Assembly (NCBI GenBank): GCA_040902165.1
Contig: JBBDXV010000113.1
Coordinates: 5,743 to 41,963, forward strand
Direction: 5' to 3'
Source of the DNA: Pseudohongiellaceae bacterium
Lineage (GTDB): Bacteria > Pseudomonadota > Gammaproteobacteria > Pseudomonadales > Pseudohongiellaceae
DNA: 36,221 nt
In this document: positions 8,721-22,601 of the stretch, one piece after another
Layout of the letters: each line of letters starts with the position of its first letter
Numbering within the stretch: the stretch's first letter is position 1
Made by a program: the position numbers and the translations under genes
Notes under the pieces: generated by a model
Database searches by the model: none
Told to the model about the DNA's origin: nothing
The model's input: only the letters and a program-made list of their open reading frames with translations

Positions 8721-10694
8721 TCACGCCGACTGGCGGCGTCGCTGTGTACGCAGGTAACCCATCGTCAACATCAGGATCGTCAGCAGCAGCGGGACCAGAC
8801 CGGTGTTGATGGCTTTAAGCCTCGACCCGAGCTGTTCGATGTCCTCGTTGAGCTGATGCTGCACGTCCCGCAGCTGACCTCGGGTGGCAAGTATTTCTTC
8901 ATTGACCCGATCAATTTCCTGCTGCACTTCCGGCGTAATTGTCGGAATCAGCTGATCGTTCTCATCACGACTCAGTTCATTGAGACGCTCTTCAGTTGCT
9001 GCCAGCGATTCCAGCAATGCCGTCTCTTCCATGCGCAATTGGTCATCGGCCTGACGCTGCAGATCCAATACCCGGGTAAAAGGTCTTGAATAGCGCCCAC
9101 GGCTGCGAATACTGACCAGGTCAGCGCTACCGCTCAAATTATCCAGAGCGTTCACCACAAAATCGCCGTTGTTCGCAAACGGCTGCGGAATACGCTGACC
9201 GAGGAATTGAGCGACCTGTACCCACATTCGATCGCTCAACAAATCCGTGTCCGCAACAATAATCAGGTTTACCTCAGCATTAGAGGTGGTCAAATGCTCA
9301 GGTACAGGTTCAGCATCTATCGCTGGTGTCTGGACTGTATCGGTAGCTGCGTCCGTATTTCCGACTGCTTCAGCAACTTCTTCTTCAACAGCAGAGTCCT
9401 CCAGCGGTGGTCCATCGGGGAAAGCAGTGCTGATCATGCCGCTGACTCTGGCGGCAATAACATATCGCTGATCGGCGGACTCGAACTCATCAAACAATAT
9501 CGAAGGGTCAGTTACATTCTGCATCAGACCGGCGTCCATCAACATCGCGTTGCTGCTGCTCTGGATCAGTGGCTCAAACCGTGTAGTGGCACCTTCCATG
9601 GGACTGATGACACCAGTGGACGAGGCGTTGACGGATTCCAGTCTGCTGGTAATCACATCGTTGAAAGTCAGTCCGGCGCTTTGAATACCCAGCATGCCAA
9701 GGTGCGGCACCGGTCGCTGACCCTGACCAAACACGACACGCAGGGCAAGCTCACTGTCAGTCAGTACCTGGCTGCTGTCATAACTCACTCCCCAGGCTGA
9801 CAGCAGTGTTGGCAAATCCGAATCCACACCTGCCGGAATGGTGACACCGAACTCTGATGCCTGAATCAGGCTGTCGGCATTGGGATCAAGGAAAACCATC
9901 GCCTTGCCATGACGGAGCACGTGCTGATCCACTGCATAGAGCATTTTTTCCGAAAGCTCGACCGGGTGCACGATCATCAATATGTCGATTTCCTGATCGA
10001 TTTCACCTGTAGTCATATCGATGCGCCGGGTTTCGTACAACTGCCGCACCACGTCCATGATTGTCCAGGGTGGGGTCGCCTGGCCGAAAGCCGGATTGAA
10101 ACCGCCATCCATATCCAGATCGGTGAGAATGCCAACGATTTGACGATCCGGATTCTCCACCCTGGTTACCAGTTTCATGAACTCATACTCGAGAAACTCC
10201 TCCTGATCAGGGCGAATGAGACCCATGGTTTCTGATATGCGAGGGGCCATACCGGTTTCATCCTGTTCCACCACTTCTGCTACCACCAGTCCAAAATAAA
10301 CACCTTCCCCGCCCTGGGAAATCGGCACCGCCTGGATGCCGAACCGGGTTGCCAGATCTTCCTCTTCCGAGAATGGTTCGGGGTCCACTACTGAAAATCT
10401 CAGGTTGCCATTGCTGGCAATTGACATTTCGCGCATTAGCTCCTGGACCCTGACGGCATAACTTCTTATCTGGGGAACGTCGGCAGTCGCCTCATCAGAA
10501 TAAAAGAAGATCATCTCGATGGGCCGGTTCAAGTTTGACAGGATATTCCTGGTACCGTCCGACAAAGAATAAAGTCTGTCTTCCGTCAAATCGATGCGAA
10601 GGGAGGGGATCAAGCTGATAATCGCAACCGACAGCAAAAGAAATACTGCAATTGACAAAAGTCCAGCTGATGAAAAGAGAGATTTGCTGTTCAT
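8721..10694 (-). CDS. GldG-like auxiliary component of an ABC-2 transporter (large extracytoplasmic protein with an N-terminal TM, C-terminal coiled coil and C-terminal TM)
   Basis: 657 aa. The N-terminal anchor is followed by RIDLTEDRLYSLSDGT, the typical start of the GldG / ABC-type uncharacterized transport system family. The C-terminus has a coiled coil followed by a TM segment. It is the third gene after an ABC ATPase and an ABC-2 permease, matching gldA-gldF-gldG order. Confidence 0.75.
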   Translation of the reverse strand: MNSKSLFSSAGLLSIAVFLLLSVAIISLIPSLRIDLTEDRLYSLSDGTRNILSNLNRPIEMIFFYSDEATADVPQIRSYAVRVQELMREMSIASNGNLRFSVVDPEPFSEEEDLATRFGIQAVPISQGGEGVYFGLVVAEVVEQDETGMAPRISETMGLIRPDQEEFLEYEFMKLVTRVENPDRQIVGILTDLDMDGGFNPAFGQATPPWTIMDVVRQLYETRRIDMTTGEIDQEIDILMIVHPVELSEKMLYAVDQHVLRHGKAMVFLDPNADSLIQASEFGVTIPAGVDSDLPTLLSAWGVSYDSSQVLTDSELALRVVFGQGQRPVPHLGMLGIQSAGLTFNDVITSRLESVNASSTGVISPMEGATTRFEPLIQSSSNAMLMDAGLMQNVTDPSILFDEFESADQRYVIAARVSGMISTAFPDGPPLEDSAVEEEVAEAVGNTDAATDTVQTPAIDAEPVPEHLTTSNAEVNLIIVADTDLLSDRMWVQVAQFLGQRIPQPFANNGDFVVNALDNLSGSADLVSIRSRGRYSRPFTRVLDLQRQADDQLRMEETALLESLAATEERLNELSRDENDQLIPTITPEVQQEIDRVNEEILATRGQLRDVQHQLNEDIEQLGSRLKAINTGLVPLLLTILMLTMGYLRTQRRRQSA

Positions 10695-10752
10695 TGATTC
10701 TACTCGTCAAACTCGCATTGGCTGATCATTATTGGGTTGGTGAAATACTGCC

Positions 10753-11487
10753 TCAATTGCCCTTCTTCATTTCTATGACTATGCCACTGGCCAGCAGCCA
10801 TGAAAAAATGAAAACGGCGAAAAACAGAAAATCCCGGATGTCCAGTACGCCTTTGCTGATGGAATCAAAATGAGTCAGAAAACCCATGGCAGCAAATGCA
10901 TCGATAAGAAACTGCGGCATCCAGCCTGGAAATGCGTTGAGCACAATCGGCGATCCCATGACTACAAACAGAAAACAGATGCTCACTGTCAGTATGAAAG
11001 CGATAACCGGATTCCTCGTGGAGGCAGACATGCAGGAACCGATTGCCAGAAAACCGCCAGCCATGAACCAGCTGCCAAGGTAAGCGGCAAATATCACACC
11101 ATTGTCTGGTTCACCGAGATAATTGACTGTCAGCCAAATGGGAAAGGTAAGCAGAAGTGCGATCCCGGTTAGTCCCCAGGCTGCAAGAAATTTACCCAGC
11201 ACAGCTTCGGATAGCTTGACCGGCAAGGTAAGCAATAGTTCTATGGTACCGGTCTTGCGCTCATCAGCCCACAGTCCCATCGCAACGGCCGGTACCATGA
11301 ACAGATACAACCACGGGTGAAAACTGAAGAACGGCAACAGATCTGCCTGTCCACGCTGATAGAAGCCACCAAGGTCAAAGGTGAAGATCCCGTTCATGAT
11401 GAGAAAGATCACGATAAAAATATAGGCCAGGGGCGTCGCGAAATAGCTGGCCAGTTCGCGTTTGAAAATAATCTGCAGATTTGCCAT
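10753..11487 (-). CDS. ABC-2 type transporter permease (GldF-like)
   Basis: 244 aa with about 6 hydrophobic helices. The N-terminus KRELASYFATPLAYIFIVIFL is typical of ABC-2 / GldF-family permeases. It lies 9 nt downstream of the ATPase gene. Confidence 0.8.
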   Translation of the reverse strand: MANLQIIFKRELASYFATPLAYIFIVIFLIMNGIFTFDLGGFYQRGQADLLPFFSFHPWLYLFMVPAVAMGLWADERKTGTIELLLTLPVKLSEAVLGKFLAAWGLTGIALLLTFPIWLTVNYLGEPDNGVIFAAYLGSWFMAGGFLAIGSCMSASTRNPVIAFILTVSICFLFVVMGSPIVLNAFPGWMPQFLIDAFAAMGFLTHFDSISKGVLDIRDFLFFAVFIFSWLLASGIVIEMKKGN

Positions 11488-11496
11488 GGCGTCTTC

Positions 11497-12423
11497 CTAT
11501 TGCACAGACTGGGTTACAGTTCTGAACACATCTTCCAGCTCTCCACGGTTTACATGGAACTCCGAAACCGGCCAGTGCCGGGTCTGAGCCAGTTCCGAAA
11601 CCGCCGCGAAAATCGGCTTCCCGTCGCGCGAGAGAATGGTAAAACTCAACTCATCCTGCTCATCCTGTTCCACTGCAGCAATCTCAGGTCGATTGGCAAG
11701 ATCAGCGACAAGATCATATCTGCTGGTCAGGCGAATGCTGACAGCCTGGTGATATCTGGATCTGGATTCCAGCTCGGCAGGTGTACCGTCGACCACTATA
11801 CGCCCATTGGCAATGATAATGGCGCGCGTACAGACTGACGTTACCTCTTCGAGGATATGGGTTGAGATGATGACAATTTTTTCGCGTGCGAGATTCCTGA
11901 TCAGGGCTCGCACATGGTGTTTCTGGTTAGGATCCAGACCGTCGGTCGGCTCGTCCAGAATAAGCACTTTGGGATCGTGCATGATGGCCTGGGCCAGGCC
12001 CACACGGCGCTTGAACCCCTTGGACAGGGTTTCAATAGTCTGATGGCGCACCTTGCCAAGTTCAACCTGTTCGATCACCCGATTGACCCTCTCGGCGATC
12101 TGTTCATTGCGGTAACCACGCACCTGGGCGATAAAATTGAGGAACTCCAGGGTCGTCATGTCGCCGTAGCTCGGCGCTCCCTCAGGCAGGTAACCGATCA
12201 GGGATTTGGCCTCGATGGCACTCTGGGTAATATCAAAACCGTCGATCTTGACCGTACCGGAGGTAGGCGCCAGAAAACCGGTAATGACCTTCATGGTCGT
12301 GGATTTGCCGGCACCATTGGGACCCAGAAAGCCAAGTACTTCACCTTCTCTCACGGTGAAGGTCAGGTCATCCACGGCAGTAAACTGATTGAACTTCTTG
12401 GTTAGATGATTAATCTCGATCAT
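11497..12423 (-). CDS. ABC transporter ATP-binding protein (GldA-like, ABC-2 subfamily)
   Basis: Walker A is GPNGAGKST, the Q-loop is present, the signature is LSKGFKRRVGLA, Walker B is VLILDEPTDGLD and the H-loop is ISTHILEE. A C-terminal extension of about 80 aa is typical of this subfamily. Confidence 0.9.
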   Translation of the reverse strand: MIEINHLTKKFNQFTAVDDLTFTVREGEVLGFLGPNGAGKSTTMKVITGFLAPTSGTVKIDGFDITQSAIEAKSLIGYLPEGAPSYGDMTTLEFLNFIAQVRGYRNEQIAERVNRVIEQVELGKVRHQTIETLSKGFKRRVGLAQAIMHDPKVLILDEPTDGLDPNQKHHVRALIRNLAREKIVIISTHILEEVTSVCTRAIIIANGRIVVDGTPAELESRSRYHQAVSIRLTSRYDLVADLANRPEIAAVEQDEQDELSFTILSRDGKPIFAAVSELAQTRHWPVSEFHVNRGELEDVFRTVTQSVQ

Positions 12424-12465: not shown

Positions 12466-12486
12466 CTCCCCGCTTTTTCAAGACGA

Positions 12487-12534
12487 GAGTCAAGGCAAGA
12501 GTCAAGACAAGAGTCAAGGTGAGAGTCAAGGCGA
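12487..12534. repeat. Four tandem 12-bp direct repeats (gagtcaaggcaa / gagtcaagacaa / gagtcaaggtga / gagtcaaggcga)
   Basis: Read directly. The conserved core is GAGTCAAG(G/A) and the 3-nt tail varies. The repeats are intergenic, between the gldA-like operon start and the lptM start. Confidence 0.9.
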
Positions 12535-12556
12535 GACACTCTCACCAAGGCAGGGT

Positions 12557-12598: not shown

Positions 12599-12745
12599 AT
12601 GAACAAACCAGTCAGAATCCTGTCTTTCTTCCTTTGTATATTGGTTTTGACCAGTTGTGGCCAGAAAGGTCCGCTGCGAAGACCGGAGCAGGTATCCCTC
12701 GAACCAATCCAGCCTGAACTGCTTGTGAATCTTCGGCTTTCCTGA
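12599..12745 (+). CDS. lptM: Small lipoprotein of the LptM (YifL) / LppL family, 48 aa; absent from the supplied ORF track
   Basis: My own translation is MNKPVRILSFFLCILVLTSCGQKGPLRRPEQVSLEPIQPELLVNLRLS*. It has a signal peptide and lipobox (LTSC) followed by the family motif CGxKGPL. The position immediately upstream of lysA-dapF matches lppL-lysA in Pseudomonas and yifL-dapF in E. coli. Confidence 0.7.
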   Translation: MNKPVRILSFFLCILVLTSCGQKGPLRRPEQVSLEPIQPELLVNLRLS

Positions 12746-12797
12746 AGCCCGTGCAATTCAAATTTGAATTTACCGTCACCTGCACGAGACATTAGCC

Positions 12798-14093: not shown

Positions 14094-14936
14094 ATGCAAT
14101 TACCTTTTACGAAAATGCACGGCCTGGGCAATGACTTCATGGTGATCGACCTGGTCAATCACAAGGCAAGCCTGGGTCCGGATCTGATCCGCCAGTTGGC
14201 AGACCGGCACTTTGGCATCGGTTTCGATCAGCTGTTGTTGATAATGCCACCCACAAGCAGCGACGTTGATTTCGACTACCGAATCTATAATGCAGACGGC
14301 AACGAGGTAGAACACTGTGGCAACGGTGCGAGATGTTTTGCACTCTATGTGCGCGACAAGGGACTCAGCAGGAAAAATCCGCTTACAGTAGGCACGATCA
14401 ATAACAAGCTGGAATTGAAAATTGAGCCGGACAACAGCGTGATCGTAGATATGGGTGTGCCCAGATTCGCTCTCGAACAGATACCGTTTCGCAGCAATGA
14501 GCAGGCAACTGTACACAAGAGAATGATTTCTCTCGCGTCAGGATCACTGCAGGTCGAGTTTGTCGCACTGTCGATGGGCAATCCGCATGCCGTCCTTCTG
14601 GTTGAGGACGTCGACAATGCCGATGTCGTTGAGATTGGTACTGCGCTTGGCAGTCATCCGGATTTTCCCCAGGGCGTGAATGTAGGGTTTATGCAAATCA
14701 TCGACGCGGGACATGTCAAATTGCGTGTCTATGAACGTGGCGCCGGTGAAACGCTTGCCTGTGGTACCGGCGCCTGTGCTGCGATGGTGGCTGGTTGCGT
14801 GCTCGGACGATTAAATGATACCGTGCAGATCAGCCTGCGTGGCGGCGAATTGACAGTGAAATGGCCGGGCAAAAACTCCCCGGTCCTGATGCGGGGACCG
14901 GCCACAACCGTATTTGAGGGGATGATTCAAATATGA
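14094..14936 (+). CDS. dapF: Diaminopimelate epimerase
   Basis: 280 aa. It has the FTKMHGLGNDFMVID N-terminus and both catalytic cysteine contexts (VEHCGNGARC and ETLACGTGACA). Confidence 0.95.
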   Translation: MQLPFTKMHGLGNDFMVIDLVNHKASLGPDLIRQLADRHFGIGFDQLLLIMPPTSSDVDFDYRIYNADGNEVEHCGNGARCFALYVRDKGLSRKNPLTVGTINNKLELKIEPDNSVIVDMGVPRFALEQIPFRSNEQATVHKRMISLASGSLQVEFVALSMGNPHAVLLVEDVDNADVVEIGTALGSHPDFPQGVNVGFMQIIDAGHVKLRVYERGAGETLACGTGACAAMVAGCVLGRLNDTVQISLRGGELTVKWPGKNSPVLMRGPATTVFEGMIQI

Positions 14937-15682
14937 GCAATGCGAACAATGTGACCAATGTGATAGACGAGAATAAAACAGCAGCACAAGCAGATGCGAA
15001 TCCGGCCGCTGAAATCAGCGCTGAGCAGGTCGCCGCTTATCTGCATACCCATCCGGATTTCTTTATTGCTCATCAAGAACTGTTGGCGGAACTGCATCTT
15101 CCCCATGCAAGCGGTAGTGCAATTTCCCTGGTCGAAAGGCAGATAAGCATTCTTCGTAACCGCGGCATGGATGCAAGGGTAAAACTCAATAACCTTTTGG
15201 ACAATGCACGCAATAATGATCTGTTGTTTGAGACTACCCGGGATCTGGTGCTTGCCCTGCTACGCGCCAGGGATGCGAATGAAATCGTCCAGATTGCCCA
15301 GGATCGACTCAACCAACTGGAAAATATTGATGCCTGTGAGTTCTTGCTGGCACAACGAAGCGGTTTGCAGCTGGCTGACAATATTCGCTCTGAACCAGTC
15401 GAGAAACTCAAACAGGATTATCAGGATGTATTCCGGCTGAAGCGAACCCATTGCGGAGGTCTCAAACAGGGCCAGATCAACAGTCTGTTCTCTACCGCAG
15501 ATGCAAAAATCAGTTCTACCGCGTTATGTCCGGTAACGCATCAAGGGGAAGTCCTTGGCTTGATCGCGCTGGGCAATCGGGAAGAGGATTATTTCAATCT
15601 CAACCTCGACACCCTGTTTCTTGATTTCATCGGTGATGTTGTCGGTGCAGTGCTTGGTCGCGAACTGGACCGGCACAAATGA
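14933..15682 (+). CDS. DUF484-family protein (YigA-like)
   Basis: 249 aa. The block VAAYLHTHPDFFIAHQELLAELHLPHASGSAISLVERQISILR is the characteristic DUF484 N-terminal block, and the C-terminal half is GAF-like. The ATGA overlap with dapF matches the position of yigA in dapF-yigA-xerC. Confidence 0.85.
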   Translation: MSNANNVTNVIDENKTAAQADANPAAEISAEQVAAYLHTHPDFFIAHQELLAELHLPHASGSAISLVERQISILRNRGMDARVKLNNLLDNARNNDLLFETTRDLVLALLRARDANEIVQIAQDRLNQLENIDACEFLLAQRSGLQLADNIRSEPVEKLKQDYQDVFRLKRTHCGGLKQGQINSLFSTADAKISSTALCPVTHQGEVLGLIALGNREEDYFNLNLDTLFLDFIGDVVGAVLGRELDRHK

Positions 15683-15721
15683 TTGCCTGACCGATCCCGT
15701 CGTGCGGTCGCCCCTCCCAAA

Positions 15722-16954
15722 ATGAAAAACTCCGACAAAAATGCACAGCCACAAACCGCCCCGCTGGTTTCAATTATTTGCCGGTCTATCAATCGCCCTC
15801 AGTTGGCAGAGGCATTGCAATCCGTCAGGGTACAGACCTACAAGCCGATTGAAATAATCCTGGTTGACAGTCTCGCGCGCGGAATTTCCGCAGACCTTTA
15901 TCGGGACTATTATCGTGACTATGGCGACCAGATCAGGGTAGTCACGCCCGAAAAACCACTGGGGCGCGCTGCGGCAGCCAATACCGGGTTGGACCATGCG
16001 CGTGGCGACTACTTGATGTTTCTGGATGACGATGACTGGATCGCGCCGGATCATATTGCAAATCTTCTGGATCTGCTTAAAGCAAACAGGAGCATAAAAG
16101 CTGCCTATAGTAGTGTAAGAAAAGTAACTCTCGCCGGCAAACCAACCGAAGAGATTTTTGACCAGCCCTATGATGTCGTTTTGCTGCGGCGGGATAACTA
16201 CATTCCAATTCATGCAGTGCTTTTTTCCAGAATCCTCTTGACCACAGGCTGTCGATTTGACGAATCGCTGGACATCTACGAGGACTGGGATTTCTGGTTG
16301 CAGGCATCAAGACAAACAGAAATGCGGCATCTGGACAGGATTACTGCTTTTTATCGTCAGGGAGGCGGCTCGGATACCGCGGTAATAACCAATGAATCAC
16401 GTTACGCCGTCGGGAATGTCATCGCTGGGGCCAGGAGTGCAGTACTGGAAAAGTGGAAGAGTATCTGGACTGGTGCCGAACTCAATGAGCTTATCGGCAG
16501 CATGGACAGCTCAGCTGAACTGTCAGCACTTGCCGAGGAAATAAAAGGACTGCACCAGACAATGGGTAATCTGCATGAACGCCTTGTAAAAGCGGACGCC
16601 GCAACCAGGGTCTTTGCGAACACTGCCAACACCCTCAGGCGTGAGCTGTCTTCAGCCAACGATGCAACCAGGATCGTTGAGAACACTGCCAACACCCTCA
16701 GGCGTGAGCTGTCGTCAGCCAACGATGCTCTCAAACAAAGATTAACCGAGTTGAACGCTCTGCATAATTCCCTTGAGGAATTGCGTAATTCCCTTGAGGA
16801 ATTGCGTAATTCCCTTGAGCAAAGTCATTCGAACGCGAGGCAATTAAACCGCCAGCTTGATGTTATCTATCACTCATTATCCTGGCGGCTCATGGGGCCT
16901 TTTCGAAGATTAAAGCGTCTACTTGGCAGCAATTCCGGTCGACATGAAAACTGA
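15722..16954 (+). CDS. Family-2 glycosyltransferase with a C-terminal coiled-coil extension of about 120 aa
   Basis: The GT-A core is VSIICRSINRPQLAEALQSVRVQTYKPIEIILVD...AAAANTGLDHARGDYLMFLDDDDW (DxD motif). The C-terminus has heptad-rich repeats (ANTANTLRRELSSAND x2, NSLEELR x3) and then the motif SLSWRLMGPFRRL. The first ATG is at 15722. The track's start at 15683 is a TTG that directly abuts the DUF484 stop. Confidence 0.8.
   Translation: MKNSDKNAQPQTAPLVSIICRSINRPQLAEALQSVRVQTYKPIEIILVDSLARGISADLYRDYYRDYGDQIRVVTPEKPLGRAAAANTGLDHARGDYLMFLDDDDWIAPDHIANLLDLLKANRSIKAAYSSVRKVTLAGKPTEEIFDQPYDVVLLRRDNYIPIHAVLFSRILLTTGCRFDESLDIYEDWDFWLQASRQTEMRHLDRITAFYRQGGGSDTAVITNESRYAVGNVIAGARSAVLEKWKSIWTGAELNELIGSMDSSAELSALAEEIKGLHQTMGNLHERLVKADAATRVFANTANTLRRELSSANDATRIVENTANTLRRELSSANDALKQRLTELNALHNSLEELRNSLEELRNSLEQSHSNARQLNRQLDVIYHSLSWRLMGPFRRLKRLLGSNSGRHEN
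16601..16728 (+). repeat. In-frame 63-bp tandem repeat (2 copies plus 2 nt) inside the GT2 coiled-coil region
   Basis: Units 16601-16663 and 16664-16726 differ at 4 positions by my alignment. Each encodes the 21-aa unit ATR(V/I)(F/V)(A/E)NTANTLRRELSSAND. Confidence 0.95.
16765..16820 (+). repeat. In-frame 21-bp tandem repeat (2 identical copies plus a 13-nt partial copy), encoding NSLEELR heptads
   Basis: taattcccttgaggaattgcg occurs at 16765-16785 and again at 16786-16806. The next unit begins identically at 16807 and diverges at 16820. Confidence 0.95.
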
Positions 16955-19900
16955 TCATCAACATTTTTCTGCAGCGCAGGAAGTCATAGACTGCAGTGTA
17001 ATAATCCCGACCCGGGATCAGGTAAAGTTACTTGAATCCTGCATAAACTCTATCCTTGCGAGCCAATACTCTGGTTCCCTGGAAATCATTGTTGTTGATA
17101 ACAACAGCAGCGAAGATGAAACCCTGTTGTATCTTGAGTCTTTTACTGAAGATCCTCGAATAAAAGTAGTAAGGTGGCCCCATCCATTTAATTTCTCCAG
17201 GCTCAACAATGAGGCAGCTCAGTTCGCCAAGGGTGAAGTACTTTGCTTTCTCAATAATGATATCGAAGTGATCAACAATAACTGGCTGGAAGAACTGGTT
17301 CCAATAGCGCGACGATACGATGTGGGAGCAGTGGGCACGATACTGCTTTATCCCGACGGAAGCATCCAACACGCTGGCATTGCCCTTGACAGTGAATGCG
17401 TGGCTAAACACGTCGGCGTTGGTGAGAGCAAGGATTTCCTGAAACACTATTCTGCGGCATCGCTTTGCAAGGTAGTTGCAGTGACCGCTGCATGCATGTT
17501 TACCAGGCGCGAACTCTTTCTCGTTTTTGGTGGTTTTAACGAATCCGATCTCCCGGTCTCATTTAACGACGTAGATTACTGCCTGCGCCTGGGTGCAGCG
17601 GGCTATCCTGTGTTCCTGAATTTTGACATAGCCCTGATTCATTACGAATCAGTGACGCGCAAGAGCGACGATCTGCCGCAAAACAGACCGCGTGCTCTGA
17701 AAGAAAAAAAATTTATGGATACCCGCTGGGCCACTGAATTAAAGGGCAAGCGATACCTGGCAGGTGTGCCGGATTCATTCAGATTTCCCGCACTGGATTC
17801 GAGTGCGCCCGAGTCTAGTTCTGTGCTGGAGAATTTTCTGCACGAACTGTCCGCAACCGAGGTACACAAATCTTCTCTCAGTTTCAATTCAGGCACTATT
17901 CTGCCTTCCAATATCGAATGGGAAAGAAAGTATCACCAACTCGAAATTCAATATCGGGTTCTGGAGGCACAGGCTCGCGAAAGCCAACAATTACTTAGCC
18001 AAATTGTGGATTCCAAATACTGGCGATACACCGGGTTTCTTCGCCTGCTGCTTCGAACTCTGACAAATTTCAAGCAGCGATGTGGCCGTTTTATCATGCG
18101 ATTCTCCCAGGGCAGACGACTTCTGATGCGGATTGGCAGGGTGCCCCGCGTCGAACCAGAAGCCCAGGTTGTCAAAATCGATGTCAAAACCGTTTATGAC
18201 GAACAGGCACGAACAGCATTGGACGCGTTCCTTGCCAGTGACGAAGTGCTTGAGTTTCGGGTCAGCGCAACTATAGACGTTTCTATAATTCTGGTTTTTT
18301 TTAACAAGGCGGAACTCAGCTATCTTTGTTTGAAATCCATACTGGCGCATGCGGGATCAAACTATGAAGTAGTAATCATCGACAACGCATCGACTGATGA
18401 ATCCGTGCTGCTTTGTAGTCGGATAAAGGGAGCAAGGATCTCGCGTAACAGTGAAAATGCGGGTTTCGTTCATGCGGTCAACCAGGCGGTACAATTGGCC
18501 ACAGGTGAAACATTGTTGTTGCTGAATAATGATGCGGTGCTGGAACCGGATTCCGTGGAGGCCGCCTTAAAAACCTTGAACAGTCGGGATGATGTCGGTG
18601 CGGTCGGCGGAATGATCAGGCTGCTGGACGGTAAATTGCAGGAGGCCGGCAGCATAATCTGGGACGATGGCAGCTGTGTCGGATATGGCCGTGGTAACGA
18701 CCCGGAACAACCTGAGTATATGTTTCAAAGGGAGGTCGATTATTGTTCCGGCGCCTTTCTGATGTTTAACCGTGAGCTTTTTGCAAAAATGGGCGGGTTC
18801 GATGAGGCTTTTGCTCCTGCATACTACGAGGAATCCGATTTTTGTATCCGCCTGAAGAAACAGGGATATAAGGTGATCTATGAGCCCCGAGCCAGGATTA
18901 CTCACTATGAATTTGCGAGCTCGGGTGGATTTTCTAACGCCGCGAAACTGCAGGCAGCACATAGGCTGGTGTTGAGAGAGAAGCATTCAGATTATCTTGC
19001 GCAAAAGTATTCTAACCTTGCTGAGAACTATAATCGCGCGAGAACTGCAAACCGAAATCCTAATGTCCTTTTCATTGATGATCGTGTGCCACACGCAAGC
19101 CTGGGGGCTGGATATCCACGCTGCCTGGATTTGCTGCGCGAACTGGCAAGTTGCAAGCTTAATGTAACGTTTTATCCACTGTTGTTTCCTGAGGAACAAT
19201 GGGATAGCACGTACTCGGTTATTCCACAGAATATTGAAGTTATACTTCACTGCGGGAAACAGGGATTGCTTGATTTTCTACAGCGAAGAGCCGGTTTTTT
19301 TGACTACATAATCGTCAGTCGGGCGCCGAATATGGATTTTCTGGGTCAGTTGATTGCTGCCAGAACTGATCTGATAAATCGAAGTCTCATTGTGTATGAC
19401 GCGGAAGCGGTTACTGCAACGCGGGATATACTGCGTTCGGAGATTCAAGGAACTCCACTGTCAGAAGACAAAAAGACCTCGCTTCTGAAACAGGAGCTCG
19501 ATCTTGCACGATATGCGCAAAAGATAATTACGGTATCACCGCTTGAGTCAATGATCTTCAGGAATGCCGGATATAAAAACGTCATTGAAATCGGACATCG
19601 CGTGGACGTGACACCGAGCAAGGCAGCCTTTGGTGATAGAGTTGACTTGTTATTTGTTGGAGCTCTGCGGGATGACACCTCACCGAACGTGGATTCTCTT
19701 CTTTGGTTTACACAAAAAGTCCTGCCCCTGATAAACAACAAACTGAAAGAGCCTGTCAGACTGATAGTTGCAGGGGACAATATCGCACCTCAATTGAAGA
19801 TCATTGATCGAACCTTTGTGAAGTTCATTGGACGAATAGATGATATCGCGCAGCTATACAATCATTGCCGTGTGTTTGTTGCCCCAACTCGATTTGCAGC

Positions 19901-20189
19901 AGGAATTCCGCGCAAGATTCATGATGCTGCAGCCTACGGTTTGCCCTCCGTATCCACTCCCCTGTTGGCAAGACAGCTTGGCTGGAAAAACCAGAAACAA
20001 CTGATCGTGGCCGATACCGCTGAGGAATTTGCCGCAGCATGTTGCCGACTGTATGAGGATGAAGCTCTGTGGAACCAGATCAGGGCTGCGGGTTTGGAGT
20101 CAGTAAGTGCCGATTGCTCACCGGCTACTTTTTCGCGCGGCGTTTCTTCTGTATTCGAAAAATCTACGGAAATCGTTACAAAAGCCTGA
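16944..20189 (+). CDS. Large multidomain glycosyltransferase: GT2, coiled-coil linker, GT2, GT-B (GT1/GT4-like)
   Basis: GT2-a (about 16992-17660) reads CSVIIPTRDQ...EIIVVDNNSSEDET...CFLNNDIEV...AACMFTRRELF...NDVDYCLRL. The linker (about 17913-18035) has the coiled coil KYHQLEIQYRVLEAQARESQQLL followed by SKYWRYTGFLRLL. GT2-b (about 18276-18920) reads VSIILVFFNKAE...VVIIDNASTDES...LLLNNDAVLE...DYCSGAFLMFNRELF...EESDFCIRL. The GT-B domain (about 19062-20150) reads LLFVGAL...RLIVAG...VKFIGRIDD...RVFVAPTRFAAGIPRKIHDAAAYGLPSVST. I chose the ATG at 16944; the track's start at 16923 is a TTG. Confidence 0.85.
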   Translation: MKTDHQHFSAAQEVIDCSVIIPTRDQVKLLESCINSILASQYSGSLEIIVVDNNSSEDETLLYLESFTEDPRIKVVRWPHPFNFSRLNNEAAQFAKGEVLCFLNNDIEVINNNWLEELVPIARRYDVGAVGTILLYPDGSIQHAGIALDSECVAKHVGVGESKDFLKHYSAASLCKVVAVTAACMFTRRELFLVFGGFNESDLPVSFNDVDYCLRLGAAGYPVFLNFDIALIHYESVTRKSDDLPQNRPRALKEKKFMDTRWATELKGKRYLAGVPDSFRFPALDSSAPESSSVLENFLHELSATEVHKSSLSFNSGTILPSNIEWERKYHQLEIQYRVLEAQARESQQLLSQIVDSKYWRYTGFLRLLLRTLTNFKQRCGRFIMRFSQGRRLLMRIGRVPRVEPEAQVVKIDVKTVYDEQARTALDAFLASDEVLEFRVSATIDVSIILVFFNKAELSYLCLKSILAHAGSNYEVVIIDNASTDESVLLCSRIKGARISRNSENAGFVHAVNQAVQLATGETLLLLNNDAVLEPDSVEAALKTLNSRDDVGAVGGMIRLLDGKLQEAGSIIWDDGSCVGYGRGNDPEQPEYMFQREVDYCSGAFLMFNRELFAKMGGFDEAFAPAYYEESDFCIRLKKQGYKVIYEPRARITHYEFASSGGFSNAAKLQAAHRLVLREKHSDYLAQKYSNLAENYNRARTANRNPNVLFIDDRVPHASLGAGYPRCLDLLRELASCKLNVTFYPLLFPEEQWDSTYSVIPQNIEVILHCGKQGLLDFLQRRAGFFDYIIVSRAPNMDFLGQLIAARTDLINRSLIVYDAEAVTATRDILRSEIQGTPLSEDKKTSLLKQELDLARYAQKIITVSPLESMIFRNAGYKNVIEIGHRVDVTPSKAAFGDRVDLLFVGALRDDTSPNVDSLLWFTQKVLPLINNKLKEPVRLIVAGDNIAPQLKIIDRTFVKFIGRIDDIAQLYNHCRVFVAPTRFAAGIPRKIHDAAAYGLPSVSTPLLARQLGWKNQKQLIVADTAEEFAAACCRLYEDEALWNQIRAAGLESVSADCSPATFSRGVSSVFEKSTEIVTKA

Positions 20190-21117
20190 CGAATCTGAAA
20201 ATAATTTTCTGCAGAACCGGCGGCAACTTTCTCATGGTGCCCGTGGTTCCGCAAAGCAACTTTTGCCTGAAACCCATTTTCTCGCTGTATCGCAATTTAA
20301 ATTGGATCGATTGTAGTCCCACATCCCGTAATAGTGCCTCAGAATCCCTATTGAAAACCCGCTTGATCAATTTTTTTGAAAATAACCTGGCTGGCTTGAT
20401 CGGTACTGCTCCAAGTAAATTGCCGCTGTGTTGCCGATAGTTAACCGTTGCCTGATTCACGAATAAAATTTCCCCGGAAATGCTTGCGACCAGCGCCAGC
20501 CACCAGTCATGCATGACGGCTGATTCGGGAACAGGAATCGCTTTATTTGCCAGAGACTCATTTATCAGGACTGTACAACCGGTAACGCTGTTCTCAACGA
20601 GTCTACGACCGAAATTCCTGCTTTGTGGTCTGAGATGCTGATATGCCGCCAGCGATGAGGATATGATTTTGAGCTGTTCATCGACGACACGCAGATCAGT
20701 GTGAACCAACACAGGTTGACTGGGGTCAGAGTGCTTCGATAACAGCGCTTCTATCGTTATTTCAAGCTTCTTCGGATCCCAGACATCATCCTGGTCACAG
20801 AACGCAATATACGCAAATCCAATGATTCCAAGCTCAGTCTTGTTTGCCAGCACATATTCGACAAGCCTTCCGAAACTCTGGCTCGGCCCAAGGTTTTTAC
20901 CAAAGCCATTGACCATTCTTATGCGGTCAGGGTTATCAACAAGATAGTGATCAATTATCTGTAAGGTATTATCTGTCGAACCGTCGTCCCGTATGACAAT
21001 AACGTAGTTCTGAAAAGTCTGCTTCAAAACCGAATCAAGCTGCCGTTCAAGAAATTTTCCGCCATTGTATGTGGATAGCAGGATGGCAACTTTGAAATTG
21101 TCCGGAATCACTTTCAA
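20176..21117 (-). CDS. Family-2 glycosyltransferase
   Basis: 313 aa. VAILLSTYNGGKFLERQLDSVLKQTFQNYVIVIRDDGSTDNT...FCDQDDVW is the classic GT-A N-terminal half with a DxD motif. There is a 4-nt start/stop overlap with the upstream GT2 gene. Confidence 0.85.
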   Translation of the reverse strand: MKVIPDNFKVAILLSTYNGGKFLERQLDSVLKQTFQNYVIVIRDDGSTDNTLQIIDHYLVDNPDRIRMVNGFGKNLGPSQSFGRLVEYVLANKTELGIIGFAYIAFCDQDDVWDPKKLEITIEALLSKHSDPSQPVLVHTDLRVVDEQLKIISSSLAAYQHLRPQSRNFGRRLVENSVTGCTVLINESLANKAIPVPESAVMHDWWLALVASISGEILFVNQATVNYRQHSGNLLGAVPIKPARLFSKKLIKRVFNRDSEALLRDVGLQSIQFKLRYSEKMGFRQKLLCGTTGTMRKLPPVLQKIIFRFVRLL

Positions 21118-22022
21118 CCCAGGGTTTTTGCATCGCGTATACCGGCAGAAATATTGCGCCAGTATTGCTTGCGTTGACCTGAAGAGACAAGCAACCAGCT
21201 TGCCTTGACAAAAAACCTGATGCAGTCCCGAACTTTCCAGCCCAGCGGTGAATAAGGAACACTGTAAAGGTGGACACGGTTCCGGCTTGAATAGTAGATG
21301 CGTGAAGGGTTGTGCAGCGCCATCACCCCTGATCTTACCAGCGGATTGGTGCTACGCTCACCGATGGCGTGATAAAGCACAGCCTGATCTGTTCCTGCCA
21401 GCTCAAAGCCCTTCGCCTTGGCACGAAAACACCATTCCATATCCACATTGTCGATGAAGTAACTGGATTTCATCATGCCTGTTTTGGGTAAAACATGAAG
21501 GGGTATCAAGGTACCTGAGGTAATCAGAAAATCGGCTTCAAAATGCAATCGCGTGTTCATGAAGTGGCGATCGGTGCGCCACATCAGCCGGTTAAACAGT
21601 TTGAATCTGGTTTGCTTGCGAGTCTGGGGATTAATGATCCGCGGGCCCAGCGCTGCCACAGGTTTGGCAGAAAGCTTTGCGATATCATCATAGGCAGTGA
21701 GCATACGATTCACATAAAGATCACAGAGACTGCTGTCCTGGTCGAACAGAAACGCAAACCGGTAGGATTGTTCGACAGCATATTCAAGCCCGATGTTCAG
21801 CGCCTGGGCCAAACCGACATTTTCCGGCAGGCGAACCAGATTGACGCAGCGTCGATAGACTTTTATTGACTCGGTGAATTGCCCGATTTTTTGCGAGCCG
21901 TTGTCAATGACTACAAAGTCCGTTTCCTTGTTCAGCTGACCCAGTAACTTCAGCAGGCTGGTAATGTCCGGGTTGAAGGTGACAATTACCGCACAACTGG
22001 CTTTTTCGTTTGTGTTATCCAT
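21114..22022 (-). CDS. Family-2 glycosyltransferase, rhamnosyltransferase (WbbL/RfbF)-like subgroup
   Basis: 302 aa. AVIVTFNPD...FVVIDNGS...LPENVGLAQALNIGLEY...FLFDQDS follows the pattern of the WbbL-type GT2 subgroup. The sugar specificity cannot be read from the sequence. Confidence 0.8.
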   Translation of the reverse strand: MDNTNEKASCAVIVTFNPDITSLLKLLGQLNKETDFVVIDNGSQKIGQFTESIKVYRRCVNLVRLPENVGLAQALNIGLEYAVEQSYRFAFLFDQDSSLCDLYVNRMLTAYDDIAKLSAKPVAALGPRIINPQTRKQTRFKLFNRLMWRTDRHFMNTRLHFEADFLITSGTLIPLHVLPKTGMMKSSYFIDNVDMEWCFRAKAKGFELAGTDQAVLYHAIGERSTNPLVRSGVMALHNPSRIYYSSRNRVHLYSVPYSPLGWKVRDCIRFFVKASWLLVSSGQRKQYWRNISAGIRDAKTLG

Positions 22023-22043
22023 GGACTGACCCGGTCTGCCGTT

Positions 22044-22601
22044 TCATTCGCTATTGGTTTCAATGGATGAACTATTTTCTGCAGGCACTTCAGCCGACAG
22101 TGTCATGCGTTCCGGCGCGGTTACCGATTGCACCAGAAAATAGACTATCGAACATACACCAAGGAACAAACCGGTAACTACGCCAGCATCCACGATTCCA
22201 CGCCAGGGTTGGGGCAACAGTCTCACTATTGTGACCAGGACGACTATCATCAAGGTCAACGAGTAGGACAGCACCAGGCGCCGTCGCGTTGCATATAGAA
22301 ATCCCATGCAGAAGAACGGCGCCAGAAGCACATGCAGTAGGCGAGGATGGTTCCTGAGGTAAGTGGCACGAATTACAACTCGCGGCGCAAAACCCTTGTG
22401 AAACCCCTGGTAACCTTCAGCATAAGCCATATAGACAATGCTGAATAACAAGGCCAGCCAGTGCCAGCCATTAAGATAGAGTTCCGACAGATCCATGGCC
22501 ATTGGCAACAGTCGGTAGACAGCAAACAACAGCAAGGCGATAACTCCGCCGATGCCCCAGGTAAAGCCGATTAAATGCACAATCTCACCCATAGGAAACA
22601 A
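22044..22601 (-). CDS. Hypothetical polytopic inner-membrane protein (about 5 TM segments); no family recognised
   Basis: 185-aa ORF with five clear hydrophobic stretches separated by basic or aromatic loops (for example YAEGYQGFHKGFAPR, ATRRR, LPQPWRG). It lies 21 nt upstream of the GT2 pair on the same strand and diverges from gshB. Coding status is supported only by ORF length, hydrophobic periodicity and operon context. Confidence 0.6.
   Translation of the reverse strand: MFPMGEIVHLIGFTWGIGGVIALLLFAVYRLLPMAMDLSELYLNGWHWLALLFSIVYMAYAEGYQGFHKGFAPRVVIRATYLRNHPRLLHVLLAPFFCMGFLYATRRRLVLSYSLTLMIVVLVTIVRLLPQPWRGIVDAGVVTGLFLGVCSIVYFLVQSVTAPERMTLSAEVPAENSSSIETNSE

What the first reader, a model, noticed from the sequence alone, without database searches (positions are those of the whole stretch)
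16480..16954. Coiled-coil tail of a GT2 enzyme built from tandem DNA repeats that are exact multiples of a heptad (possible adjustable molecular ruler)
Seen in sequence:
- The C-terminal 150 aa or so of the first GT2 protein are heptad-rich.
- At the DNA level this tail contains two in-frame tandem repeats. One is a 63-bp unit x2 (16601-16726, 4 mismatches) encoding 21 aa, which equals 3 heptads. The other is a 21-bp unit x2.6 (16765-16820, two copies identical) encoding NSLEELR, which equals 1 heptad.
- The tail ends in SLSWRLMGPFRRL. A related motif, SKYWRYTGFLRLL, follows the coiled coil in the neighbouring giant GT.

Established knowledge: in ABC-transporter-dependent O-antigen systems, coiled-coil segments of chain-terminating or polymerising enzymes (for example WbdD, WbbB) act as physical rulers that set glycan chain length.

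Inference: gain or loss of repeat units by slippage or recombination would change coiled-coil length while keeping the heptad register. That would give a simple genetic way to vary the spacing between a membrane-proximal motif and the catalytic domain, and hence possibly product length. I have not seen this described for this architecture, but I cannot search.
Basis: partly seen in the sequence, partly recalled or inferred. Interest (0 to 1): 0.65.

Follow-up and report, generated by a model that had tools for sequence, protein, structure and literature searches.

The report
Heptad-repeat stalk of a glycosyltransferase
The tail of this sugar-adding enzyme is a long coiled-coil stalk recently lengthened by in-frame DNA repeats of exactly 1 and 3 heptads, and in related bacteria the same stalk gains and loses whole heptads between near-identical strains, so it looks like a naturally adjustable version of the known "molecular ruler" that sets sugar-chain length.

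Summary
The 410-aa GT2 protein (15722-16954) ends in about 18 unbroken heptads followed by a conserved basic motif. Two in-frame tandem repeats sit in the stalk: 63 bp x2 with 4 mismatches, and 21 bp x2.8. Codon shuffles never come close to their scores.

The feature is family-wide. In 94 homologs the stalk length falls in one residue class mod 7 in 76 cases. In 174 non-redundant tails, 29 of 30 tandem repeats have periods that are multiples of 7 aa. About a third of 80 species-level genomes carry their own unrelated 21n-bp array in the tail. Within clusters of at least 90% identity, only the number of 7-aa units changes (1-8 copies). One metagenome contig differs from a reference by exactly 21 nt.

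The coiled coil plus the S-x-S-W-[KR]-x-x-x-P-x-R motif also follows methyltransferase and deacetylase heads, and in many relatives it is fused to GT2-GT1 polymerase modules. That is the layout of the characterised WbdD/WbbB-type rulers. Distant relatives lie in Wzm/Wzt clusters.

Three things are not shown: ruler or terminator function, a Wzm/Wzt exporter in this window, and copy-number variation in the window's own lineage (only one sample holds it). Verdict: a real feature and a new variant of a known kind.

The parts
15722..16954 (+). Gene for the GT2 / coiled-coil protein ('GT2cc'), 410 aa from the ATG (an alternative TTG start at 15683 gives 423 aa)
   Evidence: The ORF appears. The identical 410-aa protein P0001 is in the database. 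Pfam Glycos_transf_2 matches at 84 bits. AF2 model has mean pLDDT 88.7.
15722..16459 (+). GT-A fold GT2 catalytic head (aa 1-246), with invariant LDDDDW and EDWDFW motifs
   Evidence: Pfam. Invariant columns in alignment A1. PDB sequence and fold matches cover only this domain: AvpGT 9jma, K4CP, WrtF.
16493..16873 (+). Coiled-coil stalk, about 18 heptads in one unbroken register (aa 258-384), roughly 18-19 nm if extended
   Evidence: 3.5-aa periodicity with z = 12, and register tracking. Helices at 264-309 and 316-384 in the AF2 model. A homolog of modal length folds as one continuous 79-residue helix.
16601..16726 (+). Tandem repeat 1: 63 bp x2 (21 aa, 3 heptads each), 4 mismatches
   Evidence: TRF score 228. 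Direct comparison of the two copies and frame check.
16761..16819 (+). Tandem repeat 2: 21 bp x2.8. The in-frame units start at 16766 and encode NSLEELR, NSLEELR, NSLE(QSH)
   Evidence: TRF score 111. Translation.
16874..16924 (+). Conserved basal motif SLSWRLMGPFRRLKRLL. Family consensus is S-x-S-W-[KR]-[LI]-[MT]-G-P-x-R-R-x-x-R-x-L. It is amphipathic and basic.
   Evidence: S, W, P and R are invariant or nearly so in 104 homologs. Hydrophobic moment 0.6-0.68, charge +5. Forms a separate helix in both AF2 models.
16944..20189 (+). Downstream 1081-aa multi-module glycosyltransferase (GT2, short coiled coil, motif, GT2, GT1), the putative polymerase. Its start overlaps the GT2cc stop by 11 nt.
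   Evidence: Pfam. Overlap. Conserved next to GT2cc, or fused to it, in 63 of 80 loci.
17913..18050 (+). Short heptad segment (33 aa) plus a divergent copy of the basal motif (SKYWRYTGFLRLL, 18012-18050) inside the large glycosyltransferase
   Evidence: Orthologues carry the canonical motif at the same position (L026 and L067).
20176..22601 (-). Rest of the conserved island on the opposite strand: a GT2 (313 aa), a rhamnosyltransferase-like GT2 (302 aa), and a 185-aa membrane protein with no known family
   Evidence: Pfam and NCBIfam. Synteny in 33-39 loci.

Best explanation
Region 16480-16954 encodes the stalk and base of a head-stalk-base glycan-assembly enzyme. The head is an N-terminal GT2 catalytic domain. 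The stalk is a continuous coiled-coil-forming helix of about 18 heptads. The base is a short, highly conserved basic motif, S-x-S-W-[KR]-x-x-x-P-x-R.

Shown:
- Two recent in-frame tandem duplications (3 heptads x2 and 1 heptad x2.8) account for 35 aa, or 5 heptads, about 5 nm. Without the extra copies the stalk has the 97-aa spacing of its nearest relatives.
- In this enzyme family the stalk is a hot spot for tandem arrays whose unit is 21n bp.
- Between near-identical strains, copy number changes in whole-heptad steps.
- Across the family, the spacing between the head and the base motif stays in one residue class modulo 7.

Inferred:
- Slippage or unequal recombination between 21n-bp units generates length alleles. 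Selection keeps only those that preserve the helical phase between head and base.
- By analogy with WbdD, WbbB, ORF6(O7) and ORF7(O4), the base docks at the membrane or on the downstream multi-GT polymerase. The stalk then holds the GT2 head at a set distance, so the growing lipid-linked glycan is modified (probably capped) only when it is long enough to reach the head. Each heptad would move that set-point by about 1 nm.
For: Repeats are real and in frame.

Coiled-coil periodicity and a single register. AF2 models give a continuous 79-residue stalk helix in the modal-length homolog and 121 helical residues here.

Heptad quantisation of stalk length:
- 76 of 94 homologs share one class mod 7, and 16 more are offset by +4.
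- 13 of 19 distinct lengths fall in one class, P about 8e-7.
- 13 of 20 representatives below 50% identity fall in the same class.

Independent arrays in the tail:
- 28 arrays with period 21n bp lie in the tail windows of 80 species genomes (88 kb), against 9 in the other 1.27 Mb.
- At protein level, 29 of 30 repeats have a period that is a multiple of 7 aa, and shuffled tails give none.

Strain-level copy-number variation with identical flanks:
- QQTKHxx x1-5, NELDLRI x3-8, AAQASQL x1-3, QAKQAEV x2-3, QHINELE x2-4.
- Two clusters without repeats are invariant in length.
- A contig in run X4 lacks exactly 21 nt, with 2 other differences in 612 nt.

Length accounting: the window's stalk spacing is 132 aa. 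Subtracting 21 and 14 gives 97, the spacing in P0003 and P0008.

Ruler-type architecture:
- The same coiled coil plus motif follows a methyltransferase head fused to GT2-GT1 (L068), and follows PIG-L deacetylase heads.
- GT2cc itself is fused to GT2-GT1 in L001 and many other loci.
- Distant members sit in Wzm/Wzt_C clusters.

Literature: terminators sit at the distal end of coiled-coil rulers in all characterised ABC-transporter-dependent O-polysaccharide systems, and insertions or deletions in the WbdD coiled coil shift modal chain length (PMC11231755, PMC5082667).
Against: - No wzm/wzt lies in the window or beside the island in syntenic genomes.
- There is no sequence or fold match of the stalk or base to solved WbdD or WbbB structures. 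Only the GT-A head matches PDB entries.
- The activity of the head is unknown. It could be a polymerising or branching GT rather than a terminator.
- The window's own AF2 model has a low-confidence break at aa 310-315, inside the 63-bp repeat region. That region's core positions are Ala/Thr-rich.
- No copy-number variant was seen in the window's own lineage, which is held by one sample only.
- Heptad quantisation needs only structural selection on register. It does not by itself show that length is functionally tuned.
- The oligomeric state could not be modelled.
Confidence: 0.55

Rival explanations
1. Neutral in-frame VNTR in a spacer or oligomerisation domain. The coiled coil only oligomerises or scaffolds the enzyme. 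21n-bp arrays arise because heptad-periodic DNA slips easily. Only in-phase alleles survive because out-of-phase ones break the coiled coil. Length itself has no effect on the product.
For: The quantisation and the copy-number variation are explained equally well by purifying selection on register alone. Lengths range widely, from 76 to 174 aa between anchors, with no obvious optimum. One paper treats coiled-coil length variation in E. coli group 3 capsule methyltransferases as not critical for antigen production (PMC13171606).
Against: In the characterised analogues the length of this element does set chain length (PMC5082667, PMC11231755). The conserved head-stalk-base order, and the fusion of the base to polymerase modules, argue for a distance-setting role. 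A pure oligomerisation domain would not need 11-25 heptads.
Confidence: 0.3
2. The protein is not part of a chain-length-controlled, ABC-transporter-dependent pathway in this organism. The five-gene island makes a different glycoconjugate (a core or other short glycan, or a glycolipid). The stalk positions the GT2 head relative to the large GT for substrate hand-over, not for measuring.
For: No Wzm/Wzt lies nearby in the window or in syntenic Pseudohongiellaceae-like loci. The island sits among housekeeping genes (dapF, DUF484, gshB). Its only membrane protein belongs to no known family.
Against: Homologous modules in Nitrosomonas, Methylobacter and Thiorhodococcus lie in Wzm/Wzt_C clusters. 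A multi-module GT2-GT1 protein and a rhamnosyltransferase-like GT2 are typical of polymer synthesis. Exporter genes can be unlinked.
Confidence: 0.12
3. The apparent copy-number variation in relatives is an artefact of short-read metagenome assembly across repeats, and the window's repeats are fixed.
For: Logan unitigs break inside the arrays. One contig ends inside an array (L021). All relatives are metagenome-derived.
Against: The arrays are 40-170 bp, mostly within one read. Alleles differ in the order of distinguishable unit variants (HIS, HIY, HVA, LVA), not only in count. The same alleles recur on up to 36, 14, 11 and 8 contigs from different sources. Very large contigs and one complete chromosome also carry long arrays: L012 has 42 bp x7.2 and L044 has 42 bp x7.2. 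Clusters without repeats show no length variation.
Confidence: 0.03

Closest known systems
WbdD (E. coli O9a / K. pneumoniae O3), a chain-terminating methyltransferase-kinase on a coiled-coil ruler
   Same: N-terminal catalytic head, extended coiled coil (about 20 nm in WbdD, about 18-19 nm estimated here), then a C-terminal region that binds the membrane and recruits a separate multi-GT polymerase. It is a stand-alone protein next to the polymerase gene (PMC11231755, PMC5082667).
   Different: The head here is a GT2 glycosyltransferase, not a kinase-methyltransferase. No detectable sequence similarity. No wzm/wzt nearby. The stalk here carries recent tandem heptad repeats. I found no report of natural repeat-number alleles for WbdD in the searched literature.
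WbbB (K. pneumoniae O12) and ORF6 of serotype O7, with terminator, coiled coil and polymerase GT modules in one polypeptide
   Same: Many relatives of the window protein have this order: GT2 head, coiled coil, motif, GT2, GT1 (L001, 1121 aa). One relative has a methyltransferase head in the same position (L068).
   Different: In the window the head-stalk protein is separate from the polymerase. The polymerase carries its own extra N-terminal GT2 plus a short coiled coil and motif. The head families differ (GT99 or methyltransferase-kinase there, GT2 here).
ORF7 of K. pneumoniae O4 (GT137), a stand-alone terminating glycosyltransferase with a C-terminal coiled coil
   Same: A glycosyltransferase head followed by a C-terminal coiled coil in a separate polypeptide. 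This shows that a sugar-adding terminator on a ruler exists (PMC11231755).
   Different: Different GT fold and family. It has a TPR-like bundle before the coiled coil. No conserved S-x-S-W-[KR] base motif or tandem repeats are reported for it.
Protein rulers whose length varies by internal repeats (type III secretion needle ruler YscP, phage tape-measure proteins) and repeat-variable coiled-coil surface proteins (streptococcal M proteins). From my own knowledge, not checked here.
   Same: Natural duplication or deletion of internal repeats changes the physical length of a measuring or projecting protein.
   Different: Those measure protein assemblies or project from the cell surface. Here the object measured would be a cytoplasmic lipid-linked glycan, and the units are constrained to whole heptads.
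NeuO polysialic acid O-acetyltransferase VNTR (PMC3046976)
   Same: Tandem repeats inside the coding sequence of a surface-polysaccharide enzyme vary in copy number between strains.
   Different: NeuO has heptanucleotide repeats that switch the reading frame on and off and extend an N-terminal motif. Here the units are 21n bp, always in frame, and lengthen a coiled coil.

Membership tests
GT2 (GT-A fold) glycosyltransferases, Pfam PF00535 | Match to the family profile above the curated cut-off | tested here: met
   PF00535 scores 84.2 bits against a cut-off of 23.3, over aa 37-137 of the 423-aa ORF.
GT2 (GT-A fold) glycosyltransferases, Pfam PF00535 | GT-A fold with an acidic DxD-type metal/nucleotide-sugar motif | tested here: met
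   AF2 model has pLDDT above 90 over the head. Foldseek hits to GT2 structures reach E = 5e-19 (9jma, 2z87, 9omk). LDDDDW and EDWDFW are invariant in the alignment.
Coiled-coil molecular-ruler terminators of ABC-transporter-dependent glycan assembly (WbdD / WbbB / ORF6-O7 / ORF7-O4 type) | Extended coiled coil separating a catalytic head from the membrane- or polymerase-proximal end | tested here: met
   About 18 heptads in one register with z = 12. Long helices in the AF2 models. In fused relatives the polymerase modules follow the base motif.
Coiled-coil molecular-ruler terminators of ABC-transporter-dependent glycan assembly (WbdD / WbbB / ORF6-O7 / ORF7-O4 type) | Encoded with a Wzm/Wzt ABC exporter (often with the Wzt_C cap-binding domain) | tested here: not met
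   None in the 36-kb window or next to the island in syntenic loci. The feature is met only in distant relatives: L049, L071 and L060. An unlinked exporter cannot be excluded.
Coiled-coil molecular-ruler terminators of ABC-transporter-dependent glycan assembly (WbdD / WbbB / ORF6-O7 / ORF7-O4 type) | The head adds a chain-terminating group to the non-reducing end | not testable with these tools
   Positional analogy only. The GT2 head occupies the place of the methyltransferase head in L068.
Coiled-coil molecular-ruler terminators of ABC-transporter-dependent glycan assembly (WbdD / WbbB / ORF6-O7 / ORF7-O4 type) | Changing the coiled-coil length changes modal glycan length | not testable with these tools
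   Needs genetics and glycan sizing. Natural length alleles exist in relatives.
Coiled-coil molecular-ruler terminators of ABC-transporter-dependent glycan assembly (WbdD / WbbB / ORF6-O7 / ORF7-O4 type) | Sequence or structural homology to WbdD or WbbB | tested here: not met
   The family profile searched against all PDB chains, and Foldseek against PDB, returned only GT2 heads. The relation is one of architecture, not detectable homology.
In-frame VNTR / contingency-type repeat locus | Near-identical tandem units inside a coding sequence | tested here: met
   63 bp x2 at 93% match, and 21 bp x2.8 at 97% with two identical copies.
In-frame VNTR / contingency-type repeat locus | Copy number differs between otherwise near-identical strains | tested here: inconclusive
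   Window lineage: only one sample holds it, and no variant was seen. Related lineages: clearly met, with 1-8 units and identical flanks, plus a 21-nt deletion allele.

The most novel reading that the evidence does not exclude
The stalk is a hypermutable in-frame heptad VNTR. It lets populations of widespread aquatic Proteobacteria (Pseudohongiellaceae-like Gammaproteobacteria, and also Nitrosomonas, Methylobacter and Chromatiaceae) retune the length of a surface glycan in steps of about 1 nm, for instance under phage or grazer pressure. The coiled coil plus S-x-S-W-[KR]-x-x-x-P-x-R module would be a portable 'ruler and base' cassette that can carry heads of different chemistry (GT2, PIG-L deacetylase, methyltransferase).
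Probability: 0.3. Interest if true: 0.8.

Novelty: new variant of a known kind. Interest (0 to 1): 0.62.

Why it matters
Coiled-coil rulers that set O-antigen and capsule chain length are established in a few enterobacterial models. There, length changes were made by engineering. This work shows a very large environmental enzyme family (1005 representatives at E <= 1e-30 after clustering at 50% identity) in which nature produces the same kind of alleles.

The stalk changes in whole heptads between strains that are otherwise identical. If stalk length sets glycan length, this is a simple, reversible genetic dial for a cell-surface property. It also supplies ready-made allelic series for testing the ruler model outside Enterobacteria.

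Two practical points follow. The invariant base motif is a handle for finding such rulers in genomes. And the length polymorphism is a caution for gene-clustering and typing pipelines, which may split or mis-score these genes.

Tried and rejected
1. A profile of the 50-aa base-motif region searched against the 5.8-billion-protein database found nothing. The profile was too short for that database size. The census of the motif across head types therefore rests on a regex scan of the 80 fetched loci plus Pfam.
2. Measuring stalk length from the EDWDFW motif in distant relatives gave a noisy mod-7 distribution. Indels occur between that motif and the start of the stalk. The quantisation claim is therefore limited to proteins where the LNxLIGxLD anchor is recognisable.
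3. Reads for the window's own lineage: only run X1 holds it. The contigs break at the repeats, and no length variant is visible.
I used L007 instead.
5. Search for Wzm/Wzt in the window, and in the 3-kb insertion next to the island in L025 and L042: none found. The insertion encodes an unknown 842-aa protein and response regulators.
6. Intramolecular hairpin reading of the stalk. This was suggested by the break at aa 310-315 in the window model, where pLDDT is about 61. I consider it unlikely, for three reasons. A modal-length homolog models as one continuous 79-residue helix with pLDDT of about 86-96. The unit insertions occur at a single site. And the total length is phase-locked.
7. PDB sequence and fold searches matched only the GT-A head, with no WbdD or WbbB hit.
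8. Pfam and NCBIfam have no family for the base motif or for the 185-aa membrane protein.
9. The Rfam scan of the window returned no hits.
10. The antisense ORF at 16402-16734 (110 aa) is treated as an artefact of the repeat. It has no support.
Full report
**1. What is in the sequence**

The finding lies in the 3' third of an ORF on the + strand. The ATG is at 15722 and the stop at 16954, giving 410 aa. An upstream TTG at 15683 would give 423 aa. The identical 410-aa protein is in the protein database (P0001).

[quoted passage not shown] The C-terminal part gives only sub-threshold hits to coiled-coil families such as Taxilin, Filament and Fib_alpha.

TRF reports two arrays in the tail:
- 63 bp x2.0 at 16601-16728, 93% match, score 228.
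- 21 bp x2.8 at 16761-16819, 97% match, score 111.

Direct comparison shows exactly 4 mismatches between the 63-bp copies. Three change the amino acid and all three lie in the first six codons. Both arrays are in frame. They encode ATRVFANTANTLRRELSSAND / ATRIVENTANTLRRELSSAND, and NSLEELR-NSLEELR-NSLE(QSH). In 1000 codon shuffles of the gene the best TRF score was 56, so the repeats are not chance.

**2. Is it a coiled coil?**

Hydrophobicity in aa 251-405 has a sharp 3.5-residue period: z = 12, reached by 0 of 2000 shuffles. Periods of 3.6 and 4.0 are weak. A sliding-window register assignment gives one and the same heptad register from about aa 258 to 383. The register runs through both repeat arrays. 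Written in rows of seven, the a and d positions line up in the window protein and in all eight homologs printed.

An AF2 model built with a 37-sequence alignment has mean pLDDT 88.7. It shows a GT-A head (aa 1-246), helices at 264-309 and 316-384, and a separate C-terminal helix at 386-405. The only break, at aa 310-315, has pLDDT of about 61. It falls in the Ala/Thr/Ser/Asn-rich 21-aa repeat.

A second model, of a homolog of modal length (P0021, 364 aa), gives one uninterrupted 79-residue helix with pLDDT of about 86-96, followed by the motif helix. I therefore read the stalk as a continuous coiled-coil-forming helix. At 0.1485 nm per residue, about 121-127 residues give 18-19 nm. The oligomeric state could not be modelled with the tools available.

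**3. The family, and the main result**

The protein has hundreds of homologs: 399 hits in the word-indexed search, and 1005 representatives at E <= 1e-30 after clustering at 50% identity. The best non-self hit is only 50% identical.

I measured the distance between a conserved anchor at the start of the tail (LNxLIGxLD) and the W of the C-terminal motif. Results:
- In 94 homologs, 76 fall in a single class modulo 7. The values are 76, 83, 90, 97, 104, 111, 118, 125, 132, 139, 146, 167 and 174. Another 16 fall in the class offset by +4 (80, 87, 101, 108). Two lie elsewhere.
- Counting each distinct length once, 13 of 19 fall in one class, P about 8e-7.
- Among representatives below 50% identity, 13 of 20 fall in the same class.

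The window protein has a spacing of 132. The family mode is 83-90. Subtracting the duplicated copies (21 + 14 aa) from 132 leaves 97, which is the spacing in the close homologs P0003 and P0008. The two arrays therefore account for the extra length.

**4. Independent repeats in many lineages**

A scan of one genome per species returned at least 548 loci, of which 80 were kept. TRF on these found:
- 28 arrays with periods of 21, 42, 63, 84, 105 or 126 bp inside the tail windows (88 kb in total).
- 4 further arrays in the tails with periods of 33, 54 or 75 bp. These equal 11, 18 and 25 aa, all 7n+4, the size of a coiled-coil 'stutter'.
- Only 9 low-scoring 21-bp arrays in the remaining 1.27 Mb.

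Many of the tail arrays are 95-100% identical at the DNA level, and the units are unrelated between lineages. They are recent, independent duplications, not conserved sequence.

At protein level, 30 of 174 non-redundant tails contain a clear tandem repeat. Of these, 29 have a period that is a multiple of 7 aa (7 x19, 14 x4, 21 x3, 35 x1, 42 x2) and one has a period of 18. Shuffled tails give none.

**5. Copy number varies between near-identical strains**

I looked up ten clusters of at least 90% identity and printed the tails of seven of them.

In every cluster that has a repeat, full-length members differ by multiples of 7 aa. The flanks are identical and only the unit count changes:

| Unit | Copies | Protein lengths (aa) |
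|---|---|---|
| QQTKH[IV]x | 1-5 | 367-395 |
| NELDLRI / NELELQR | 3-8 | 380-415 |
| AAQASQL | 1-3 | 389, 396, 403 |
| QAKQAEV | 2-3 | 381, 388 |
| QHINELE | 2-4 | 374, 381, 388 |
| NERDIQI | varies | 366, 373 |

Alleles also differ in the order of distinguishable unit variants. Several alleles recur on many independent contigs (36, 14, 11 and 8). Two clusters whose listed members all have the same length (364 aa and 373 aa) served as controls.

At the DNA level, a contig in run X4 covers L007:10600-11232 with exactly 21 nt missing at the array and only 2 other differences. In runs X5 and X11 the assembly graph branches inside the array.

For the window's own lineage only one sediment metagenome holds the sequence, and no variant is visible there. 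Variation is therefore shown for the family, not for this particular gene.

**6. The base motif and the architecture**

The C-terminal motif is far more conserved than the stalk. The consensus is L-N-x-I-Y-x-S-x-S-W-[KR]-[LI]-[MT]-G-P-x-R-R-x-x-R-x-L. S, W, P and R are invariant or nearly so in 104 sequences. In the window it has a hydrophobic moment of 0.6-0.68 and a net charge of +5.

A regex scan of all frames of the 80 loci, followed by Pfam, shows three things:
- In many genomes, including the nearest one (L001), the GT2 head, stalk and motif are fused in frame to GT2-GT1 modules, giving proteins of 1050-1540 aa.
- The same stalk-plus-motif follows other heads. These are PIG-L deacetylase (L050, L077), PIG-L plus GT2 (L055, L058), and a methyltransferase followed by GT2-GT1 (L068).
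- In the window, and in L026 and L067, the large downstream GT has its own N-terminal GT2, a short heptad segment and a copy of the motif. The window's copy is the divergent SKYWRYTGFLRLL at 18012-18050.

The motif therefore marks the junction between a stalk and the polymerase-type modules. When the protein is not fused, the motif is the C-terminus.

**7. Genomic context**

The window is a housekeeping region: hemCD, argH, lysA, dapF, DUF484, gshB, pilT, proC and metXW, among others. Inserted between the DUF484 gene and gshB is a five-gene island:
- GT2cc and the 1081-aa GT on the + strand, overlapping by 11 nt.
- A GT2, a rhamnosyltransferase-like GT2 (TIGR01556, 191 bits against a cut-off of 200.55) and a 185-aa membrane protein of no known family on the - strand.

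The whole arrangement is syntenic in about 40 Pseudohongiellaceae / Pseudomonadales-type MAGs. In those loci the flanking genes are 60-92% identical to the window's, but GT2cc is only 38-44% identical.

No wzm/wzt is present in the window or beside the island in these genomes. In more distant members (Nitrosomonas L049, Methylobacter L071, Thiorhodococcus L060) the homolog lies in clusters with an ABC-2 permease and, in L049 and L071, an ATPase that carries the Wzt C-terminal domain.

**8. Comparison with what is known**

In the characterised ABC-transporter-dependent O-polysaccharide systems, a terminating enzyme sits at the distal end of a coiled coil. The proximal end contacts the membrane and the polymerase, or is fused to it. 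The coiled coil has been established as a ruler in E. coli O9 (WbdD) and K. pneumoniae O12 (WbbB) (PMC11231755, PMC5082667). In WbdD, insertions and truncations in the coiled coil raise and lower modal chain length (PMC5082667). ORF7 of serotype O4 shows that the terminator can be a stand-alone glycosyltransferase with a C-terminal coiled coil (PMC11231755).

The window protein has this layout, and its estimated stalk length is close to the roughly 20 nm of WbdD. It is not detectably homologous to WbdD or WbbB. Its exporter is not linked, and its activity is unknown. I therefore say it works like these rulers, not that it belongs to their families.

I found no description of natural heptad-unit tandem repeats or copy-number alleles in such rulers in five full-text searches. 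The nearest statement is a passing remark that coiled-coil length varies in putative methyltransferase genes of E. coli group 3 capsule clusters (PMC13171606). Repeat-variable rulers of other kinds (YscP, tape-measure proteins) and repeat-variable coiled-coil surface proteins (M proteins) are known to me from the literature, but I did not check them here.

**9. Mechanism, with what is shown and what is inferred**

Shown:
- The stalk is heptad-periodic and continuous.
- The window carries two recent in-phase duplications worth 5 heptads.
- Family stalk lengths are phase-locked.
- Arrays arise repeatedly and independently.
- Copy number changes in single-heptad steps between near-identical strains.
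- The base motif is invariant and sits at the junction with polymerase modules.

Inferred:
- Slippage or unequal recombination creates the alleles.
- Selection on helical phase filters them. The +4 class and the 11-, 18- and 25-aa units fit tolerated stutters.
- The base docks on the membrane or the polymerase.
- The head caps or modifies the chain once it is long enough to reach it, so each heptad shifts the set-point by about 1 nm.

The main rival is that length is neutral and only the register is selected. The present data cannot separate the two, and the experiments listed under next steps would.

**10. Verdict**

The functional claim, a ruler for product length, remains an analogy.

- Novelty: a new variant of a known kind.
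- Interest: 0.62.
- Confidence in the full mechanism: 0.55.
- Confidence that this is a heptad-phased, repeat-expandable coiled-coil stalk: above 0.9.

Noticed in passing
window 12478-12536: A 12-bp tandem repeat x4.9 (TCAAGGCGAGAG-like). It lies in the divergent intergenic region between the ABC ATPase gene (11497-12423, - strand) and a small lipoprotein ORF (about 12600-12746, + strand, MNKPVRILSFFLCILVLTSCGQKG..., LptM/YifL-like) that precedes lysA. It may be regulatory. Its function is unknown.
   Followed up: no
window 8721-12423 (- strand): A GldG-type ABC system: an ABC_transp_aux + DUF7088 protein, an ABC-2 permease and an ATPase. It is syntenic with the GT island in all Pseudohongiellaceae-like loci. 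It is not a Wzm/Wzt pair by Pfam, and whether it relates to the glycan is unknown.
   Followed up: partly
window 22044-22601 (- strand): A 185-aa multi-pass membrane protein with no Pfam or NCBIfam family. It is conserved (49-65% identity) as the last gene of the GT island in 33 loci. It is the island's only membrane protein and a candidate partner of the pathway.
   Followed up: partly
window 15722-20189 compared with loci L001-L045: GT2cc and the large GT evolve much faster (35-52% identity) than the flanking housekeeping genes (60-92%) in fully syntenic loci. This pattern is typical of surface-glycan genes under diversifying selection.
   Followed up: partly
L050:7981-9909, L077:8032-9030, L055:9230-13882, L058:7454-9256: PIG-L family deacetylase domains carry the same coiled coil plus S-x-S-W-R-x-T-x-P-x-R motif at their C-terminal side. 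This means a deacetylase mounted on a ruler-like stalk. I did not find this head type described for such stalks.
   Followed up: partly
L049:6503-9784 and L049:9974-11071 (Nitrosomonas sp. Nm166): Two paralogous GT2-stalk modules lie in one Wzm/Wzt cluster, one fused to GT2-GT1 and one stand-alone. Each has its own 21/42-bp tandem array in the stalk.
   Followed up: partly
L015:10886-10990, L052:10801-10878, L019:1358-1472, L011:10848-11007: Stalk arrays with units of 33, 33, 54 and 75 bp (11, 18 and 25 aa, all 7n+4). These periods fit hendecad or stutter-type coiled-coil periodicities. They may explain the minority class of stalk lengths that is offset by +4 residues.
   Followed up: partly
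window 14933-15682 and downstream: From memory, the DUF484 (YigA-like) gene is followed by xerC in many Gammaproteobacteria. Here, and in the syntenic loci, it is followed by the GT island instead.
   Followed up: no
L025:16694-19222 and L042:17889-19994: In a subset of syntenic genomes a roughly 3-kb insertion lies between the island and gshB. It encodes a large protein with no Pfam family (842 aa in L025) and response-regulator receiver proteins.
   Followed up: partly
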